From: Ferrithrix thermotolerans DSM 19514
Lineage (GTDB): Bacteria > Actinomycetota > Acidimicrobiia > Acidimicrobiales > Ilumatobacteraceae
DNA: 27,806 nt
Assembly (NCBI GenBank): GCA_945860575.1
Contig: CAMAQQ010000001.1
Location: forward strand, 1 to 27,806
Direction: 5' to 3'
The notes under the pieces are model-generated. The model saw nothing but the letters and a program-made list of their open reading frames with translations, was not told the origin of the DNA and searched no databases. Position 1 is the stretch's first letter, and every line of letters starts with the position of its first letter. Shown here one piece after another: positions 14,578-20,873 of the stretch. A program made the position numbers and the translations under genes.

Positions 14578-15390
14578 TTATGCCTTTGCGGGCGACTGCT
14601 CGTTAAGATTCTGTCGCAAAGTCAAATCTCTTTGATGCAAGATACGACAGAGCAACAAGAAAATAATTGATGAGCCAATCGTTATAAAAATTGCAGGTTG
14701 GCGCTTGCTACCCAGATCCCGAATCATGTGAACATATCGGCGCGGTTGCGTTTCGTCAACTACTGGCTTAGCCGGCGCACGACCAGGCTCGGTGCGCTGG
14801 GGCAGAACTGGTGCTACTTCAACAAGCGCAAAATGAGGCTTATGAAAGAACGCGACAAAATCGAGCGACTCGTTTATTTTTGGCCAACGCTCTCCGCCCT
14901 TGTTATAGACAGCGAGTGAAATATATTCTCCCGCTTGGAGTTCTTCGGCTTCGCGCTGAATGATGTCATCAGAAGCAGCCACCGCTTGGCCACGACCGGT
15001 GTCAGACTCTGCCAGTAGCAACCAACCTTCAAGCTGAAGTGCTTTTGAAACCTCGGCTGAATCACTTTGCGCTGACCCGGTCAAAGTTAATGAGGACTCC
15101 AAAATTTCCGCGCCCTGCAATTGTGACGGCTCGCGCACGATCGTCACGGGTTCGGCGGGTTGCCATGTTGGTTCTCGACCTTTCAGACCAATGCCGTATG
15201 TCCACCAAATCGCTCCCATTGTCGCCATCCAGCCGAATAGTCCAGCGAGCACAATCAAAAAACCCAAGCGCGCACCCAAGTTGGTGCCGACTACTAAATA
15301 AGTGCCACCAATAAGAACACCGACAGCGATCGCGACGATAACAATGCCGCGTAATTCTGGCTCCCAGTTAATTGCAAGTAGTGACAACAT
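14578..15390 (-). CDS. Hypothetical membrane protein (two N-terminal TM, soluble domain, one C-terminal TM)
   Basis: 270-aa ORF with a 0-nt gap to the cytochrome c stop and 3 nt to nuoA. No family motif recognised. Confidence 0.88.
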   Translation of the reverse strand: MLSLLAINWEPELRGIVIVAIAVGVLIGGTYLVVGTNLGARLGFLIVLAGLFGWMATMGAIWWTYGIGLKGREPTWQPAEPVTIVREPSQLQGAEILESSLTLTGSAQSDSAEVSKALQLEGWLLLAESDTGRGQAVAASDDIIQREAEELQAGEYISLAVYNKGGERWPKINESLDFVAFFHKPHFALVEVAPVLPQRTEPGRAPAKPVVDETQPRRYVHMIRDLGSKRQPAIFITIGSSIIFLLLCRILHQRDLTLRQNLNEQSPAKA

Positions 15391-16431
15391 TTACAAACCT
15401 CTTACATAATCAATAACAGCAGCAATTTGCTCGTCGGTGAGCATTAACCCGAATGCAGGCATTCGACCTGAACCTTGACCTTGTTGCCCATATCTTTTGC
15501 CAAGTTCACTACCACCCTTGATGAACGCAATCATCTCGTCGCGTTGTGGAAACTGGCGAACGGCCGAACCGCCCGTGAGGTTTGGGCCAAGTGCTCCGCC
15601 GCCGGTGATTTGTGGTTCGCCATACGACCAACCCTTTGTATGGCAACGGGCGCACGAAAAGTTTCCGCTACCTAGATCTAAATTAAACAATGCCTCGCCA
15701 ATGGTGGCATAAGTTTTTGCTTTAACCAATCGCTCTGCTTCGGCTTGAATCTCTTGTTGTTTCTCTTCTGGCAGTTTTCCATTTTCGTCGCGCGGAATCT
15801 GAATACTCTTGACATAATCAAGAACGGTTTGAATCTGCTGCTCGTTCAAAGGCCCACCACCAACGAGGCCCCATGCAGACATCGGCGAGAACGGCCGACC
15901 ATAATTCAAAATAAATCGAAATTCTTCTTCGCTGTATCGATAATAAACCGTGTTTATCGCTGGTGCTTTCCAGTTGACTTGCTTGACCTCACCTGTATTC
16001 GGATCAGTGAGTGCATACGCCGCGACACCGCCACCACCCTTCATCCCCCCGTGGCATCCTGCGCAGTTATAACCACCATCTGAAGTAGTTGCGAATAAAC
16101 CGCTACCCCATTCTTCGAACTGGTGTTGAAATTCTTTTTCAGCACCGACCATTCGACCAGGCTCGAGAATCCAATAAAGAGGCAAAGCGATCGTGACTAT
16201 TGCAAGAAAGGCCAGTCCAATCAATTGGGTGCGCTCAATCTTTTCGCCCTCAAGACGTTCGTCGTCGTAATACGGTTTACGGTTCGCCGCAAGTTTTATT
16301 TCCGAACCAACTTCGCGTTTCGCCGAACGAATATTCGACAAACCATAGACAATCCAACCGAGTACAGATACGAGAAGAATTACCCAGGCGATCGTTGTTG
16401 TTGTGTCGGCGAGAACAACTGCGGCATTCAT
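15391..16431 (-). CDS. Membrane-anchored diheme cytochrome c of a Rieske/cytochrome b complex
   Basis: CAGCH (16051-16065) and CARCH (15640-15654), candidate distal Met in PMSAW and RMPAF, two N-terminal hydrophobic helices. Confidence 0.9.
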   Translation of the reverse strand: MNAAVVLADTTTTIAWVILLVSVLGWIVYGLSNIRSAKREVGSEIKLAANRKPYYDDERLEGEKIERTQLIGLAFLAIVTIALPLYWILEPGRMVGAEKEFQHQFEEWGSGLFATTSDGGYNCAGCHGGMKGGGGVAAYALTDPNTGEVKQVNWKAPAINTVYYRYSEEEFRFILNYGRPFSPMSAWGLVGGGPLNEQQIQTVLDYVKSIQIPRDENGKLPEEKQQEIQAEAERLVKAKTYATIGEALFNLDLGSGNFSCARCHTKGWSYGEPQITGGGALGPNLTGGSAVRQFPQRDEMIAFIKGGSELGKRYGQQGQGSGRMPAFGLMLTDEQIAAVIDYVRGL

Positions 16432-17280
16432 TTAGTGACTTCCCTCTGCGCCAACGCAGTTTGGTCCTTCGGCTTCTTGGCCCGTTGTGTTAGTTCCGAT
16501 TGGCGGACCACCAAAAACTGCACCGGTGTCAATAATCACCATCCCATTATTTACTGAAACTCCGAAACGATCCATTCCCCGTGGGGCGGGGCCACCTTTT
16601 TTCTCTCCCACACGGTTGTATTGCGAACCATGACACGGGCACTCGAACCACTGCGAAGTTTTGCATTCTGGGACTCGACAACCAAGATGCGGACACTTTT
16701 GATACAACGCGACGACGCCAGCATTCATTCCTGAAAAAACTGCACCCTGGCCTCCGTACGAGACTTCTGCTTTCGAAATCGCTTCCTTTGGATATTCAGT
16801 TATCCAAGAGCGCGCTTCGGGCAAATACAAAAAACCATCGGCAGCACGAATCTGGGCAACTACGTCTTCAATCTTGCCCGCGTTGATTTTCGACCCGAAG
16901 CCGCCTTCGGCACCTTTCCATAAAAATGCAATCAGAGCGGCCGCGAAACCGCCGAGGCTGGCACTCATCAGGGTTACTGTGGCGCGATTTAGAAATGCAC
17001 GCCGCGTTTCACCAAGTGCTTCAGCATCTGGTGCAACCCATGTTTCAATTGCGGGTGGTGGCATGACGGCTAGTGCATTGCGGCTTGCAACACCTTGATG
17101 CTCGGCCTCACGCGAGGAGTTGCGCGCGACTTTTGCAGCATTTCGATCTCGCTTACGAGTCTCACGCGACAGTGATCCAACACCTTTAATATCAGAGCGG
17201 CGTGAGGCAGTAAGCACAACGCCAAGACCAAGCACGGCGAGCACGGCGATCGCAATTGTGATGATTGAAGTTGAGTTCAT
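16432..17280 (-). CDS. petC: Rieske [2Fe-2S] subunit (PetC/QcrA-like)
   Basis: CPHLGC (16678-16695), CPCHGSQY (16618-16641), twin-arginine motif TRRAFL (16990-17007), KGGPAPRGM. Confidence 0.93.
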   Translation of the reverse strand: MNSTSIITIAIAVLAVLGLGVVLTASRRSDIKGVGSLSRETRKRDRNAAKVARNSSREAEHQGVASRNALAVMPPPAIETWVAPDAEALGETRRAFLNRATVTLMSASLGGFAAALIAFLWKGAEGGFGSKINAGKIEDVVAQIRAADGFLYLPEARSWITEYPKEAISKAEVSYGGQGAVFSGMNAGVVALYQKCPHLGCRVPECKTSQWFECPCHGSQYNRVGEKKGGPAPRGMDRFGVSVNNGMVIIDTGAVFGGPPIGTNTTGQEAEGPNCVGAEGSH

Positions 17281-17296
17281 TTAAGTAATAGTCCGA

Positions 17297-18034
17297 TCAC
17301 AATTCGAAGAAGATGCCTTCACGCCATGGGAAGACAAAGTTGAAACCAGGACCTCTAAAAAATGAACCAATAATTACAAGCACCGCCCAAAACATCAAAT
17401 GGACCGTCCACAAACTCGTCAAAAACTTTCGATCTTCGGGACGATTTGATTCATTGCGATCCAAATATGGCGCAAGCATCATTGCGATGATTCCCATTCC
17501 GGGAATTGTCACACCGGCAATCATCGGATGAAACATCGTCAACAGCTCTTGCAATCCAAGAAAGTACCAGGGTGCTTTTGATGGGTTCGGTGTTTGATTG
17601 AAGTTTGCCGCTTGCAACAACGGCGCGTTTACAAACCACGAAAACATAAATACAAATGCAGTACATGCGAGCGACGCAACAAACTCAACGCCCAACAAAT
17701 GTGGCCAAGTATGTACTTTGTCAACTGGAACCGCTTTAACATCTTGAATCGACCCTGATTTAACAACGGTCAGCAAACGCTGTGTATGTCCACCAGGTCC
17801 GGCTCCGTAAGGGATGCTTCCGTTTGTTGGCGCTCCCACGACAAGAGCACTGGGCTTTTCTGCCACAGCAACCGCACCACCTGCGGCTTTGCTTCGCTCA
17901 AGCAAATCAGCCGGAATTCGCGAACCTGCATCGCTACTCGCAGCAGTTGGTGCCGAAGCACCTGCTGCGTCAGCAGCAGCTTTTTCGCGCGCCTCTTGCG
18001 CCCGTTTAAGCAGATGTTCTGGAATGCCGGCCAT
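17297..18034 (-). CDS. petD: Cytochrome b C-terminal part / subunit IV-like protein (PetD-like)
   Basis: TWPHLL..ANFNQTPNPSKAPWYFLGLQELL aligns with the WP..ANP..TP..PEWY region of subunit IV; 3 TM; TGATG overlap with the cytochrome b gene. Confidence 0.87.
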   Translation of the reverse strand: MAGIPEHLLKRAQEAREKAAADAAGASAPTAASSDAGSRIPADLLERSKAAGGAVAVAEKPSALVVGAPTNGSIPYGAGPGGHTQRLLTVVKSGSIQDVKAVPVDKVHTWPHLLGVEFVASLACTAFVFMFSWFVNAPLLQAANFNQTPNPSKAPWYFLGLQELLTMFHPMIAGVTIPGMGIIAMMLAPYLDRNESNRPEDRKFLTSLWTVHLMFWAVLVIIGSFFRGPGFNFVFPWREGIFFEL

Positions 18035-18819
18035 CAGAGTGGTCCTGAGATTCCGCCGTCTTTACGCACGCGCCAGAAATGGATCGCGAGGAAGATGACA
18101 GTAACAAATGGGAAAAGTAAGACGTGCAACACATACCATCGCAGAAGAGTTTCTGGTCCGATCTCTACTCCGCCCAGCAAAACGAAACGAACTTGTGAAC
18201 CAATCACTGGCGAGTATCCCATCATGTTGGTACCCACCGCTACTGCCCATAGCGCAAGTTGATCCCATGGCAACAAGTATCCAGTGAACGAAAGCAGAAG
18301 AGTGAGTGTCAGCAATATTACGCCAATCACCCAGTTGAACTCACGAGGCGCTTTATACGCACCATGATAAAAAACACGAGCCATGTGTAAAAACACCGCC
18401 AACACCATCAAGTGCGCTCCCCATCGATGCATGTTTCTGACCATCAATCCAAACGTCACCGACGTGTGCAACGACTGAATGTCTTGCCAAGCATTGGCTG
18501 ATGTCGGACGATAGAAAAACATTAAGAAAATTCCGGTGATGGTAAGCAAGATGAATAAAAAGAAACTCAAGCCACCCAAGCACAGTGTGTAGCTGACTTT
18601 TACAGCGTGACGCTTTACTTTTACTGGATGCAAGTGATAGAGCACAGAGTTCATAACTACATACGAACGGTTTCTTGGTGAGTCTGAGTAACCCTTGCGG
18701 AATATCGATCCTGGTCGGAAGATTGAGTTCCACGCTTGGCTGCCCTGCAATGACTCATTTAATTTTGTTATGCGATCTTTGATCGTCAGACGAGATTTTT
18801 GTTCGAGCATTTGAACCAT
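18034..18819 (-). CDS. petB: Cytochrome b N-terminal part, cytochrome b6-like (PetB-like)
   Basis: TLCLGG, MHRWGAHLMVLAVFLHMARVF, GYLLPWDQLALWA, LHVLLFPFVTVIFLAIHF, and the C-terminus GISGPL found in cytochrome b6. Confidence 0.93.
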   Translation of the reverse strand: MVQMLEQKSRLTIKDRITKLNESLQGSQAWNSIFRPGSIFRKGYSDSPRNRSYVVMNSVLYHLHPVKVKRHAVKVSYTLCLGGLSFFLFILLTITGIFLMFFYRPTSANAWQDIQSLHTSVTFGLMVRNMHRWGAHLMVLAVFLHMARVFYHGAYKAPREFNWVIGVILLTLTLLLSFTGYLLPWDQLALWAVAVGTNMMGYSPVIGSQVRFVLLGGVEIGPETLLRWYVLHVLLFPFVTVIFLAIHFWRVRKDGGISGPL

Positions 18820-18837
18820 TTAATTTATTCTCCGTTC

Positions 18838-19251
18838 TTAAAATCGCATGCCATATGAATAGCCATGATTATTCGTTCGCATATGAGTTTCGCCAGTCGC
18901 TGGCGCAACGCCAACCTTGCCCAAGATAATTACTCCTGTTGGACATCGATCAACGCACAGCGCACAACGCGTGCAAACATCATCGTCAATAATAAACACA
19001 ACCTTGTCCGAAGGATCATCACCCGGCAACTCAGTGCCGTCAGCTTGTGTGATTGCTTCTGGCGAAACCATGAAGATGCACTTCCATGGGCAAATATCCA
19101 CGCATCCTTCGCACATAATGCACTCTGACTGATCAATATGTATGAATTGCTTTGGCTTGACTGCTTTGCTCAGGTATTCGGCATCAACCTCAACAAGTTG
19201 GTAGTCATCCGTATACGGCATCATCGGCGGGTTTGCGTCAGTTTTTGCCAT
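18838..19251 (-). CDS. 2x[4Fe-4S] dicluster ferredoxin-like protein
   Basis: CIMCEGCVDICP (19088-19122) and CTRCALCVDRCP (18940-18975); no TM or signal peptide evident. Confidence 0.92.
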   Translation of the reverse strand: MAKTDANPPMMPYTDDYQLVEVDAEYLSKAVKPKQFIHIDQSECIMCEGCVDICPWKCIFMVSPEAITQADGTELPGDDPSDKVVFIIDDDVCTRCALCVDRCPTGVIILGKVGVAPATGETHMRTNNHGYSYGMRF

Positions 19252-19254
19252 GGC

Positions 19255-19731
19255 TCAACTTCTCTTCACCAGTGGACGTCCGTAAGTTGAAGTTGCTACT
19301 TCTTTAGTAACTACTTCTCCACGCTTCTGCCACCACTTGAATAAATAAATCATCAGGCCGATGTAATAAACATGGATGACTACAACGATGATGTCGCGAA
19401 TTGCTTCGTAACTAATAACGATCGGAAAGCTTCCGCCAATCGTGTCTGACTTCAAAATATCAAATGGTCCGTAGACGAGTTTGTCTTTACGCCATCCAAG
19501 ATCTTTGTCGGCGTGGTCGATCCACTGGTGAGGCACAACACCAAACGCCAAAAACAAAACTGCAAAAACATAAGCGGCACCCAGCATCGCTTCGCCCCAA
19601 GTTGCTTTACGATCAAAACTTCGACGCTTGCCAATTGGAATTACAACAAGACTCATGAGTGTGGTCAGTACGAGCGAAAACAAGAATGCCTGATTCACTC
19701 CTGGCCACCTGAGAATGTCAATTGCGAGCAT
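19255..19731 (-). CDS. Hypothetical 3-TM membrane protein, first gene of the run
   Basis: 158 aa, ATG 19731, purine-rich GAGGAAAGG upstream, 3-nt gap to the ferredoxin. Confidence 0.87.
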   Translation of the reverse strand: MLAIDILRWPGVNQAFLFSLVLTTLMSLVVIPIGKRRSFDRKATWGEAMLGAAYVFAVLFLAFGVVPHQWIDHADKDLGWRKDKLVYGPFDILKSDTIGGSFPIVISYEAIRDIIVVVIHVYYIGLMIYLFKWWQKRGEVVTKEVATSTYGRPLVKRS

Positions 19732-20048: not shown

Positions 20049-20873
20049 GTGGCAGGAATACCCGAGCATCTACTTAAGCGTGCACAAGAAGCGCGTGACA
20101 AAGCAGCTGGTAAAGCACCCGCAGCAGATGCATCCGGCGACGCGACAAATCTTCCTGCAAAAACTTCTCAAGCCAAACCAACTCCGGCTCCACAAGTTGC
20201 AAGCGCTCCGCCACCGCCACCGCCAGATCCAAGTTATGTAGTTGCTGCAAAGACGCGAAAAAAAATTCCATTTTGGGCGATGGCTACTTTGAGTTTGTTG
20301 CCCCTTTGGGCGCTGCTGTATGTGCTCGCGATTCGCCCACAAGAAAGAACAGTCGAAGGACCACTTGCAGTGGGTGCTGGTGTCTACGGATCTTGTGCAG
20401 GTTGTCATGGAGCCAATGGCGCTGGTGGAGCCGGTCGAGTTTTATACCAAGGAGAAGTTCTGAAAACTTTTCCGAAAATCGAGGACATGCTTAATTTTGT
20501 CTACACAGGCTCGCAACAATATATTTCTGCGGGTCTAAAAATTTATGGCAACCCAGACCGTGAAGGTGGCGCACACGAATTGCTTTCATATAACGGCAAC
20601 CCAATGCCTCAGCAGGGCGAAAAATACAGCGGTGGTCTAACTGACGCGGAAATTCTTGGAGTCGTCTGCCATGAACGCTATGAATTGAGTGGCGCAGACT
20701 CTGAAAGCGAAACATGGAAAGCAGAATACGAACGCTGGTGTTCACCCGAATCAGAGATTTTTGCTGGTCTTGAAGCTGGCTCAGTTAACTTTGACAATCT
20801 TGCAGAGACTTACGCTTCAATGCCCGACGCCCCTGCACATGTCGGTACAGACCCTCGACCAACTGGCAAATAA
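20049..20873 (+). CDS. Membrane-anchored monoheme cytochrome c
   Basis: GTG start with TGAGGAG at 20038-20044, Ala/Pro-rich linker, one TM (IPFWAM..LYVLAI), CAGCH at 20394-20408, candidate Met in NPMPQQG. Confidence 0.9.
   Translation: MAGIPEHLLKRAQEARDKAAGKAPAADASGDATNLPAKTSQAKPTPAPQVASAPPPPPPDPSYVVAAKTRKKIPFWAMATLSLLPLWALLYVLAIRPQERTVEGPLAVGAGVYGSCAGCHGANGAGGAGRVLYQGEVLKTFPKIEDMLNFVYTGSQQYISAGLKIYGNPDREGGAHELLSYNGNPMPQQGEKYSGGLTDAEILGVVCHERYELSGADSESETWKAEYERWCSPESEIFAGLEAGSVNFDNLAETYASMPDAPAHVGTDPRPTGK

What the first reader, a model, noticed from the sequence alone, without database searches (positions are those of the whole stretch)
17882..18034. Same 20-aa N-terminal motif on subunit IV and on the divergent cytochrome c, conserved at protein level only
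Seen: MAGIPEHLLKRAQEAREKAA (17975-18034, minus) and MAGIPEHLLKRAQEARDKAA (20049-20108, plus) are 19/20 identical, yet 13 of the 19 identical positions use different codons (including the ATG/GTG start). Subunit IV has a second degenerate copy, IPADLLERSKAA (17882-17917). In both proteins the motif precedes an Ala/Pro-rich linker and is predicted cytoplasmic. The rest of the two proteins is unrelated. Inference: selection maintains a portable docking or oligomerisation helix that tethers the mobile cytochrome to the complex or recruits both to a shared partner. I know no named family for it.
Basis: partly seen in the sequence, partly recalled or inferred. Interest (0 to 1): 0.78.

Follow-up and report, generated by a model that had tools for sequence, protein, structure and literature searches.

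The report
Shared docking helix on respiratory proteins
Two unrelated respiratory membrane proteins, and a soluble protein elsewhere in this freshwater actinobacterial genome, carry the same short helix on floppy cytoplasmic tethers; it is the surviving core of an uncatalogued three-helix module found across the class Acidimicrobiia and most likely a docking tag whose partner is still unknown.

Summary
Subunit IV (17975-18034, minus) and the divergent cytochrome c (20049-20108, plus) start with the same 20 residues: 19/20 amino acids but only 46/60 bases. Subunit IV has a second, weaker copy. A third carrier lies on another contig: a soluble Nfu_N-like protein with the motif at its C-terminus.

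The motif is not a free-standing peptide. It is helix 2 of an unannotated 40-50-residue three-helix module (AlphaFold2 pLDDT 97.5). That module occurs in 1-7 tandem copies on flexible cytoplasmic tails. It was found in 172 of 200 good Acidimicrobiia genomes and not convincingly elsewhere in the phylum. The two motif-less genomes I checked also lack the b6c-type subunit IV.

Different lineages have attached it to different soluble proteins: the Nfu_N-like protein, a small beta protein, and the 2-oxoacid:ferredoxin oxidoreductase alpha subunit.

Purifying selection at protein level is clear. Portability is shown. The binding partner is not: the one complex prediction gave no answer.

Pfam, NCBIfam, PDB and the literature searched hold no match. 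This scan has already reported the same module at least seven times on other Acidimicrobiia DNA. New here are the lineage-specific soluble carriers and the codon evidence.

The parts
17975..18034 (-). Motif copy 1, at the extreme N-terminus of subunit IV (residues 1-20)
   Evidence: Translation. HMM score 36 bits. AlphaFold2 on the full protein gives a helix at residues 6-24 with pLDDT 71-83.
17882..17917 (-). Motif copy 2 of subunit IV (residues 40-51, IPADLLERSKAA), degenerate in this genus
   Evidence: Translation. HMM score 28-31 bits. Relatives read [SGP][RK]IPAHLLERS[KR]. Predicted helix at residues 42-50 with pLDDT about 53.
17918..17974 (-). Ala/Ser-rich linker 1 between the two copies (residues 21-39)
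   Evidence: Column identity 0.41-0.44 against 0.87-0.90 for the motif. pLDDT is below 50 for residues 27-41.
17789..17881 (-). Linker 2 between copy 2 and the conserved HTQRLL segment (residues 52-82)
   Evidence: Column identity 0.53-0.64. pLDDT is below 50 for residues 51-98. Subunit IV length varies from 224 to 304 aa across relatives.
17297..18034 (-). Subunit IV gene of the b6c-type complex (245 aa). Its start overlaps the cytochrome b6 stop by one base.
   Evidence: ORF list. Pfam PF00032, 32.1 bits against a cut-off of 20.7.
20049..20108 (+). Motif at the N-terminus of the membrane-anchored mono-haem cytochrome c (GTG start)
   Evidence: Translation. HMM score 36-37 bits. M1, P5, E6, H7, L8, L9 and R11 are invariant in 28 orthologues whose mean column identity is only 36%.
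20109..20264 (+). Ala/Pro-rich cytoplasmic linker of cytochrome c (residues 21-72)
   Evidence: Sequence. Column identity 0.55.
20265..20321 (+). Single membrane span of cytochrome c (residues 73-91)
   Evidence: Hydropathy scan. Four K/R in the 15 residues before the span and two after it.
20049..20873 (+). Cytochrome c gene (274 aa), divergent from the complex operon
   Evidence: ORF list. Pfam PF00034, 21.5 bits against a cut-off of 21.3, and a CxxCH motif. Adjacent and divergent to the operon in 40 related genomes.
14578..19731 (-). Context operon: 3-TM protein, 2x[4Fe-4S] ferredoxin, cytochrome b6, subunit IV, Rieske protein, di-haem cytochrome c and a 270-aa membrane protein. The gene set from the 3-TM protein to the di-haem cytochrome c recurs in the deep-branching loci examined across the class.
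   Evidence: ORFs and Pfam. The same gene order appears in deep-branching lineages. The two motif-less genomes checked (G202, G252) gave no match to subunit IV.

Best explanation
The peptide is a portable cytoplasmic docking element. It is the surviving recognition helix (helix 2, with its I/V-P cap) of an Acidimicrobiia-specific three-helix module of about 45 residues.

The module hangs on long, poorly conserved Ala/Pro/Glu-rich tethers. I propose that it brings its carriers to one common binding site associated with the ferredoxin-bearing b6c-type quinol:cytochrome c complex.

Carriers seen here or in relatives:
- subunit IV
- membrane-anchored c-type cytochromes
- an Nfu_N-like protein
- a small beta protein
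- the alpha subunit of 2-oxoacid:ferredoxin oxidoreductase

Shown: the module exists and is predicted to fold. It is under strong purifying selection. It is always on predicted cytoplasmic tails. It has been acquired repeatedly by unrelated proteins. In the cases checked, its presence goes with that of the complex.

Inferred: that it works by protein-protein docking, and that the site is at or near the complex. The receptor is not identified.
For: 1. Selection. Fourteen distinct DNA versions in one genus encode the same subunit IV 20-mer. Orthologues differ at 2-14 of 60 bases, almost all of them silent. The two paralogous segments differ at 11-20 of 60 bases with fixed codon differences. Motif columns have identity 0.87, against 0.41-0.55 for linkers and 0.53 for the haem domain of cytochrome c.

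2. Distribution. The motif is present in all 18 same-genus genomes and in 12 of 12 other families of the order. It is present in 172 of 200 high-quality class genomes. In a 300-genome draw from the phylum, no match better than E = 3e-4 lay outside the class, against 1e-5 to 1e-10 inside it. The best 80 loci in species genomes are nearly all labelled Acidimicrobiia. The two motif-less genomes checked gave no match to subunit IV or the Nfu_N-like protein.

3. Module. A 39-column profile finds 461 cluster representatives among 1.84 billion proteins, with 1-7 tandem copies each. AlphaFold2 on a 48-unit alignment gives three helices with pLDDT 97.5 and pTM 0.81. The window motif aligns to helix 2.

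4. Portability. The Nfu_N-like domain occurs in 140 of 200 genomes, but its motif tail occurs only in the window's family, 24 of 24. The beta protein has the tail only in three other families. OFOR alpha has it at the N-terminus in at least five species genomes of one marine genus.

5. Helix plus disorder in the window's own subunit IV model.

6. Not a lipid-binding helix. The hydrophobic moment is 0.15-0.32 and mean hydrophobicity is negative for three of the four copies.
Against: - No partner has been found.
- The only complex prediction scored 0.00 and gave no verdict either way. It modelled ferredoxin, cytochrome b6 and subunit IV against residues 1-45 of cytochrome c.
- Arrays of up to seven copies on one protein are hard to reconcile with a single site on the carrier's own complex. 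They fit better with a multivalent hub or with module-module association.
- The link to the complex rests on co-occurrence among related genomes, which are not independent. Only two motif-less genomes were checked directly.
- There is no obvious reason why a membrane-anchored cytochrome c should share a cytoplasmic partner with a ferredoxin-dependent enzyme.
Confidence: 0.5

Rival explanations
1. Homotypic zipper. The modules or helices bind one another, so carriers are tied directly to subunit IV and to each other with no separate receptor. Respiratory components and client enzymes would then cluster on the cytoplasmic face.
For: Every carrier has the same element, and subunit IV, the constant carrier, usually has two or more copies. 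In the window's order helices 1 and 3 are lost, which would expose the hydrophobic side of helix 2 (I, L, L, A, A), so it should need something to pack against. The variable residues just before the I/V-P (TE, VE, AE, AG) are usually the same on subunit IV and cytochrome c of one genome.
Against: Tandem arrays of up to seven copies would be expected to collapse on themselves. The three-helix unit is predicted as a closed monomeric bundle. Within-genome identity between the two tails (11.7 of 20) is barely above between-genome identity (10.8 of 20). The complex prediction included the subunit IV tails and gave no contact, which is not evidence either way.
Confidence: 0.2
2. Biogenesis or quality-control tag. 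The element is recognised by a chaperone, insertase, cofactor-delivery factor or protease during assembly or turnover of respiratory subunits, and is not a permanent dock.
For: On subunit IV and cytochrome c it sits directly after the initiator Met in all 40 genomes. One carrier weakly resembles an Fe-S scaffold domain: Nfu_N at 19 bits, below the cut-off.
Against: It also occurs at C-termini and as internal tandem repeats, up to seven per protein. That does not fit a co-translational or terminal signal. It is also present on complete soluble enzymes.
Confidence: 0.12
3. Nucleic-acid binding. The three-helix unit is a helix-turn-helix-like or ANTAR-like domain that ties carriers to DNA or RNA.
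For: The pattern A-x-x-x-G-[MIV]-P-x-x-L-x-x-R resembles helix-turn-helix motifs. One multi-repeat protein collects sub-threshold hits to several HTH Pfam families. ANTAR RNA-binding domains are among the structural matches at Z 5.2-5.7. Many copies are basic.
Against: No match reaches significance. All Foldseek E-values are at least 0.6, and Z of 7.1 or less is in the range the tool itself calls a common arrangement for helical folds. hhalign against a MerR HTH gives 0.1% probability. The window's copies are net neutral (4 K/R against 4 D/E). In the marine lineage the tethers are strongly acidic.
Confidence: 0.07
4. Membrane-surface amphipathic helix that anchors or orients the tails on the lipid bilayer.
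For: The helix has one small apolar face (I, L, L, A, A), and its membrane-protein carriers are already at the membrane.
Against: The hydrophobic moment is 0.15-0.32, mean hydrophobicity is negative for three of the four copies, and there are no aromatic residues. The full form is a closed three-helix bundle. The most conserved residues are polar (R, S, H, E).
Confidence: 0.04
5. No function of its own. The identity reflects recent gene conversion between two inverted 5' ends, or chance.
For: In this genus the second half of the cytochrome c tail has become subunit IV-like, and both changed TE to AG. That is most simply explained by one old copying event.
Against: Fourteen of 60 bases differ, all at one base per codon, with codon differences fixed between paralogues across the genus. 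No DNA repeat is detectable. The motif is conserved class-wide on separate genes. Conversion could explain the spread of the sequence but not its maintenance.
Confidence: 0.02

Closest known systems
FtsZ C-terminal peptide on its disordered linker (own knowledge: D-[IV]-P-x-F-[LM]-[RK], binds FtsA, ZipA and SepF)
   Same: A short conserved helix-forming peptide at a protein terminus, after a long variable disordered linker. It has an [IV]-P start followed by hydrophobic then basic residues, and it works as a landing pad.
   Different: The pattern here is P-x-x-L-L-x-R, not P-x-F-L-R. The carriers are respiratory and metabolic proteins, not FtsZ. The element occurs at N-termini and in tandem, and it derives from a folded three-helix module.
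Peripheral-subunit-binding domain (Pfam PF02817) on Ala/Pro-rich linkers of 2-oxoacid dehydrogenase E2 chains
   Same: A very small helical domain strung on Ala/Pro-rich flexible linkers that recruits partner enzymes to a core complex.
   Different: No sequence relation. Pfam scans give no hit. hhalign against this genome's own PSBD gives 0.3% probability. The module here has three helices rather than two, and the carriers are different.
Rubisco-binding motif shared by many pyrenoid proteins of Chlamydomonas (own knowledge)
   Same: One short helical motif, in one to many copies, on functionally unrelated proteins including membrane proteins. It acts as an address tag for a common hub.
   Different: That system is eukaryotic, its sequence is unrelated, and its hub is known (the Rubisco small subunit). 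Here the hub is unknown.
Cytoplasmic-side accessory binding on cytochrome b6f: PetP in cyanobacteria (PMC9342900, title and abstract seen) and the stromal face in state transitions (bioRxiv 10.1101/2023.08.08.552398)
   Same: The n side of a b6-type complex serves as a docking platform for small regulatory proteins.
   Different: Those partners bind the folded face of the complex. No shared tethered tag is known there.
RodZ N-terminal helix-turn-helix (own knowledge: a cytoplasmic HTH on a membrane protein that binds MreB, not DNA)
   Same: A small helical HTH-like domain on the cytoplasmic tail of a membrane protein, used for protein binding.
   Different: No detectable homology. RodZ has a single copy and a different cellular system.
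AROD domain of archaeal Rpa1 (PDB 8aaj, 8aa9), the best structural match
   Same: A three-helix bundle of the same size: 50 residues aligned, rmsd 1.9-2.0, Z 7.0-7.1.
   Different: Z is below the level the tool regards as meaningful for helical folds. Identity is 18%. The biology is unrelated.

Membership tests
Cytochrome b C-terminal / b6f subunit IV (Pfam PF00032) | Profile match above the gathering score over the three-helix membrane core | tested here: met
   32.1 bits against a cut-off of 20.7, residues 143-224. The motif lies outside this domain.
Class I c-type cytochrome (Pfam PF00034) | CxxCH haem-binding motif and a profile match above the gathering score | tested here: met
   CAGCH is present. 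Score 21.5 bits against a cut-off of 21.3, only just above it. C116, C119 and H120 are invariant in 28 orthologues.
Peripheral-subunit-binding domain (PF02817) | Profile similarity to E3_binding | tested here: not met
   No Pfam hit on seven module-bearing proteins at E<=1 or on ten more at E<=0.1. hhalign of the module alignment against this genome's own PSBD gives probability 0.3%.
Helix-turn-helix DNA-binding domains (Pfam HTH families) | Profile match above the gathering score, or a significant structural match to an HTH domain | tested here: inconclusive
   Only summed sub-threshold repeats on one protein (Xre-like-HTH and HTH_23, with no single stretch passing). hhalign against a MerR HTH gives 0.1%. 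Foldseek E-values are at least 0.6.
FtsZ C-terminal peptide | D-[IV]-P-x-F-[LM]-[RK] at the C-terminal end of FtsZ | tested here: not met
   Read directly from the sequence. The carriers are not FtsZ. The spacing is P-x-x-L-L-x-R. The position is N-terminal, internal or C-terminal.
Twin-arginine (Tat) signal peptide | [ST]-R-R-x-F-L-K followed by a hydrophobic h-region and a cleavage site at the N-terminus | tested here: not met
   No RR-x-F-L-K. The motif is followed by a polar Ala/Pro linker of 50 or more residues. It also occurs at C-termini of soluble proteins.
ANTAR / AROD three-helix domains | A structural match clearly above background | tested here: inconclusive
   AROD scores Z 7.0-7.1 and ANTAR proteins Z 5.2-5.7. 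The tool notes that Z below about 8-13 for helical bundles may mean only a common arrangement.
Nfu_N scaffold domain (PF08712), for the third carrier | Profile match above the gathering score | tested here: not met
   19.1 bits against a cut-off of 27. No NCBIfam family. 'Nfu_N-like' is used here only as a label of resemblance.

The most novel reading that the evidence does not exclude
The module is a class-wide address tag that builds a cytoplasm-side hub on the ferredoxin-bearing b6c-type complex. It would tie membrane cytochromes and oxidase subunits into a supercomplex. It would also dock soluble ferredoxin-linked enzymes, such as 2-oxoacid:ferredoxin oxidoreductase, next to the complex's own ferredoxin subunit. 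Low-potential electrons could then enter the quinone pool at the n side (haem ci).
Probability: 0.15. Interest if true: 0.85.

Novelty: new variant of a known kind. Interest (0 to 1): 0.62.

Why it matters
Respiratory supercomplexes are normally thought to be held together by contacts within the membrane or on the periplasmic side.

A conserved, portable cytoplasmic tag is different. It is shared by a quinol oxidase subunit, its electron-accepting cytochromes and, in some lineages, soluble oxidoreductases. That would be a way of organising an electron-transport chain for which I found no description in the papers searched.

Acidimicrobiia are abundant in lakes, oceans and soils and are mostly uncultured. 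This module marks their main complex III-type enzyme. It also gives a concrete handle, a 20-residue peptide or a 45-residue domain, for fishing out whatever the complex is connected to on the inside of the cell.

The fusion to a ferredoxin-reducing enzyme, next to an operon-encoded ferredoxin, makes a long-discussed idea directly testable: ferredoxin input at the n side of b6-type complexes.

Tried and rejected
- Complex prediction. Ferredoxin, cytochrome b6 and full subunit IV, each with a 28-row alignment, against residues 1-45 of cytochrome c. Score 0.00, no verdict. This is not evidence for or against binding.
- Pfam on 17 module-bearing proteins, and NCBIfam on carriers and on one module array. 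No family covers the motif.
- PDB sequence search with the module profile. Only designed repeat proteins and chance stretches came back.
- Foldseek and VIA-align on the module model. No match above background.
- ESM Atlas on the Nfu_N-like protein, the beta protein and a repeat array. Only unnamed clusters, and the array model is of low confidence.
- Full-text search for four motif spellings. No papers. A search on Acidimicrobiia and b6 terms gave nothing on this class.
A viral-contig scan with the module profile found no relative. tblastn of the window peptide against 50,697 phage records found nothing. The short-motif alignment was too variable for the viral scan.
- Look-up of a possible array-only protein, P0161. 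It is not on record, so I cannot say whether free-standing arrays exist.
- P0269, an apparent module-SDR fusion, lacks the first 90 or so SDR positions. I do not count it as a carrier.
- Membrane-binding helix: rejected on hydrophobic moment.
- RNA-level or DNA-repeat explanation: rejected.
The Nfu_N-like protein was therefore never folded.

Full report
THE OBSERVATION

Window 17975-18034 (minus) gives MAGIPEHLLKRAQEAREKAA. Window 20049-20108 (plus) gives the same 20-mer with D for E at position 17 and a GTG start. They share 46 of 60 bases. Fourteen codons differ, each at one base. Thirteen of these leave the residue unchanged and one gives E/D. The second copy in subunit IV, IPADLLERSKAA, is at 17882-17917.

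The carriers are a 245-aa protein matching Pfam PF00032 (b6f subunit IV type) and a 274-aa protein with CxxCH that just passes PF00034. Subunit IV lies in a minus-strand run of genes: a 3-TM protein, a 2x[4Fe-4S] ferredoxin, cytochrome b6, subunit IV, a Rieske protein, a di-haem cytochrome c and a 270-aa membrane protein. The cytochrome c gene is divergent from this run.

Names given by sources to near-identical proteins place the organism among freshwater Ilumatobacteraceae/Acidimicrobiia MAGs. The assembly is 1.33 Mb in 197 contigs and 74% complete.

MORE THAN CHANCE, AND A THIRD CARRIER

A motif HMM run over all six-frame ORFs of the genome found four copies in three proteins at E<=1e-8. 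The next hit had E about 0.9. The third protein, on contig C96, is a soluble protein of about 154 aa. It weakly resembles the Nfu_N domain (19 bits, below the cut-off of 27). It carries LIPPHLLARSRAARSKAQAS as its last residues. So the peptide occurs at N-termini of membrane proteins and at the C-terminus of a soluble one.

SELECTION

In the genus, 14 distinct DNA versions encode the subunit IV start; 13 of them give the identical 20-mer and one gives a single change. Orthologous segments differ at 2-14 of 60 bases. The subunit IV and cytochrome c segments differ at 11-20, with codon choices fixed between them, for example GCC GGC ATT CCA against GCA GGA ATA CCC. There is therefore no ongoing gene conversion, and the DNA does not register as an inverted repeat.

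Along subunit IV the motif columns are as conserved as the membrane core (0.87 against 0.84 across the order), while the linkers are not (0.41-0.53). In cytochrome c the motif (0.87) is better conserved than the haem domain (0.53). M1, P5, E6, H7, L8, L9 and R11 are invariant alongside the CxxCH residues.

WHAT IS SHARED AND WHAT IS SPECIAL TO THIS GENUS

In 40 further genomes of the order, both genes start with x-E-[IV]-P-E-H-L-L-x-R. They then usually diverge. Subunit IV continues RAQAAREKAA, and cytochrome c continues RSRERRAALG. Mean identity between the two tails is 11.7 of 20 within a genome and 10.8 between genomes. The window's genus (18-19 of 20) and two other lineages (16 and 17) are outliers.

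In this genus both tails also changed TE to AG. I infer one old copying event, followed by silent divergence under purifying selection.

DISTRIBUTION

- The motif was found in all 18 same-genus genomes and in 12 of 12 other families of the order.
- It was found in 172 of 200 high-quality genomes of the class.
- In a 300-genome draw of the phylum, matches outside the class were all marginal (E 3e-4 or weaker).
- The two motif-less genomes of the order that I checked gave no match to subunit IV or the Nfu_N-like protein.
- The operon from the 3-TM protein to the di-haem cytochrome c is conserved in deep-branching lineages.
- A genome with two such clusters has the motif only on one.

THE MOTIF IS PART OF A MODULE

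In deep-branching and marine lineages the peptide continues as ...RSAEAKAKALGVPVEQVLAEMKG. Internal copies are preceded by a further helix.

A 39-column profile found 461 cluster representatives at E<=1e-3 among 1.84 billion proteins (189 at E<=1e-10), with one to seven tandem copies each. AlphaFold2 on an alignment of 48 units predicts three helices (residues 4-15, 19-33 and 37-47) with mean pLDDT 97.5 and pTM 0.81. The window's motif aligns to the turn plus helix 2.

In the window's order, helices 1 and 3 are gone from subunit IV copy 1 and from cytochrome c. In the window's own subunit IV model, residues 6-24 form a helix (pLDDT 71-83), residues 42-50 form a weaker one, and the linkers fall below 50. 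The piece that survives truncation is also the most conserved part of the full module (P, R, S and A invariant). I take this to mean that helix 2 carries the function.

WHO CARRIES IT

Membrane carriers:
- subunit IV and variant subunit IV-like proteins
- mono-haem cytochromes c next to the operon
- FixO-like and FixP-like cytochromes
- a polytopic protein in a cytochrome oxidase cluster
- proteins whose membrane part matches the window's 270-aa protein, BLASTP E = 2e-11

Soluble carriers are lineage-specific:
- The Nfu_N-like domain is in 140 of 200 class genomes, but its tail with the motif is only in the window's family, 24 of 24.
- A small beta-rich protein is in 43 of 200. It has the tail in three other families but not in the window's family.
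- In at least five species genomes of a marine genus with 1-Mb genomes, the alpha subunit of 2-oxoacid:ferredoxin oxidoreductase begins with the module and an acidic linker of variable length, ahead of a complete enzyme.

Repeated independent attachment to unrelated proteins is the strongest argument that the element works as a self-contained tag.

COMPARISON WITH WHAT IS KNOWN

- No Pfam or NCBIfam model covers it.
- The PDB holds no sequence relative.
- Four motif spellings occur in no paper of the library.
- Fold searches give only background-level matches: archaeal Rpa1 AROD at Z 7.1, ANTAR domains at Z 5.2-5.7, and designed helical repeats.
- hhalign against this genome's own peripheral-subunit-binding domain and against a MerR helix-turn-helix gives probabilities of 0.3% and 0.1%.

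In working principle the closest things I know are the FtsZ C-terminal peptide on its linker, the PSBD on Ala/Pro linkers, and the shared Rubisco-binding motif of pyrenoid proteins. It is a member of none of these.

MECHANISM

I commit to docking. The helix, on a flexible tether, binds a common site associated with the ferredoxin-bearing b6c-type complex (confidence 0.5).

The main rival is direct module-module association (0.2). It would explain why truncated helix 2, with an exposed apolar face, is viable. It fits less well with long arrays and with the closed bundle prediction.

A biogenesis or turnover tag (0.12) fits the position right after Met. It does not fit the internal and C-terminal copies.

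Nucleic-acid binding (0.07) is suggested by the HTH-like pattern. It is weakened by the neutral charge of the window's copies and by the acidic tethers.

Lipid binding (0.04) is weakened by a hydrophobic moment of 0.15-0.32.

The one complex prediction returned no verdict.

EXPRESSION

Freshwater metatranscriptome assemblies contain contigs 90-95% identical to the window. They span subunit IV including the motif, and the cytochrome c gene. This shows presence in RNA libraries of relatives, not proof of transcription.

EARLIER NOTES OF THIS SCAN

A word search, made after my own analysis, showed that the same element had been reported at least seven times on other Acidimicrobiia DNA. The readings were the same: an undescribed docking tag or three-helix module with an unknown partner.

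My results agree with them. They add the family-restricted tails on the Nfu_N-like and beta proteins, the OFOR alpha fusion in several genomes, and the codon-level evidence in this genus.

One note mentions phage proteins. Two searches here found none.

Another reports ongoing gene conversion in a marine relative. In this window conversion is not ongoing.

Noticed in passing
L001:1-711 (-) and L001:854-1315 (-), which is contig C96 of the window's genome: The Nfu_N-like gene is followed on the same strand by a MerR-type HTH plus B12-binding-domain regulator gene in at least nine genomes. That regulator looks like the light-sensing CarH/LitR kind, a domain reading made by eye and not scanned. 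A divergent acyl-CoA dehydrogenase gene is often next to the pair. It looks like a conserved gene pair of unknown meaning.
   Followed up: partly
L226-L230 (G347, G537, G545, G522, G515): In one marine genus with genomes of about 1 Mb, 2-oxoacid:ferredoxin oxidoreductase alpha carries the module plus an 85-100-residue E/P/V-rich acidic linker at its N-terminus. In G347 an acidic repeat extension also lies upstream of the beta subunit gene.
   Followed up: yes
window 20049 and orthologues: The cytochrome c gene starts with GTG or TTG in nearly all of 43 genomes, whereas subunit IV almost always starts with ATG. This may reflect a fixed difference in translation initiation strength between the two tagged proteins.
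   Followed up: no
window 18034: The subunit IV start codon shares one base with the cytochrome b6 stop codon (TGATG), which suggests translational coupling.
   Followed up: no
L078 (G189:C1:1454702-1458172): A deep-branching genome has a second, more divergent cluster of ferredoxin-like protein, cytochrome b6, subunit IV, Rieske protein and cytochrome c. Its subunit IV has no N-terminal extension and no motif.
   Followed up: partly
window 14578-15390 (-) and P0123, P0127: The first two membrane helices of the unassigned 270-aa protein at the end of the operon match proteins elsewhere that carry 3-7 copies of the module at their N-terminus (35% identity over 55 residues, E = 2e-11).
   Followed up: partly
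window 17944-18067: In two freshwater metatranscriptome assemblies the summed contig depth peaks two- to three-fold over the bin holding the motif and the b6/subunit IV junction. This is probably because many related organisms share that stretch.
   Followed up: no
G000:C23:112-261 (-): The window's genome also encodes the small beta-domain protein that carries the motif tail in other families. Here, and throughout this family, it has no tail, while the Nfu_N-like protein does.
   Followed up: partly
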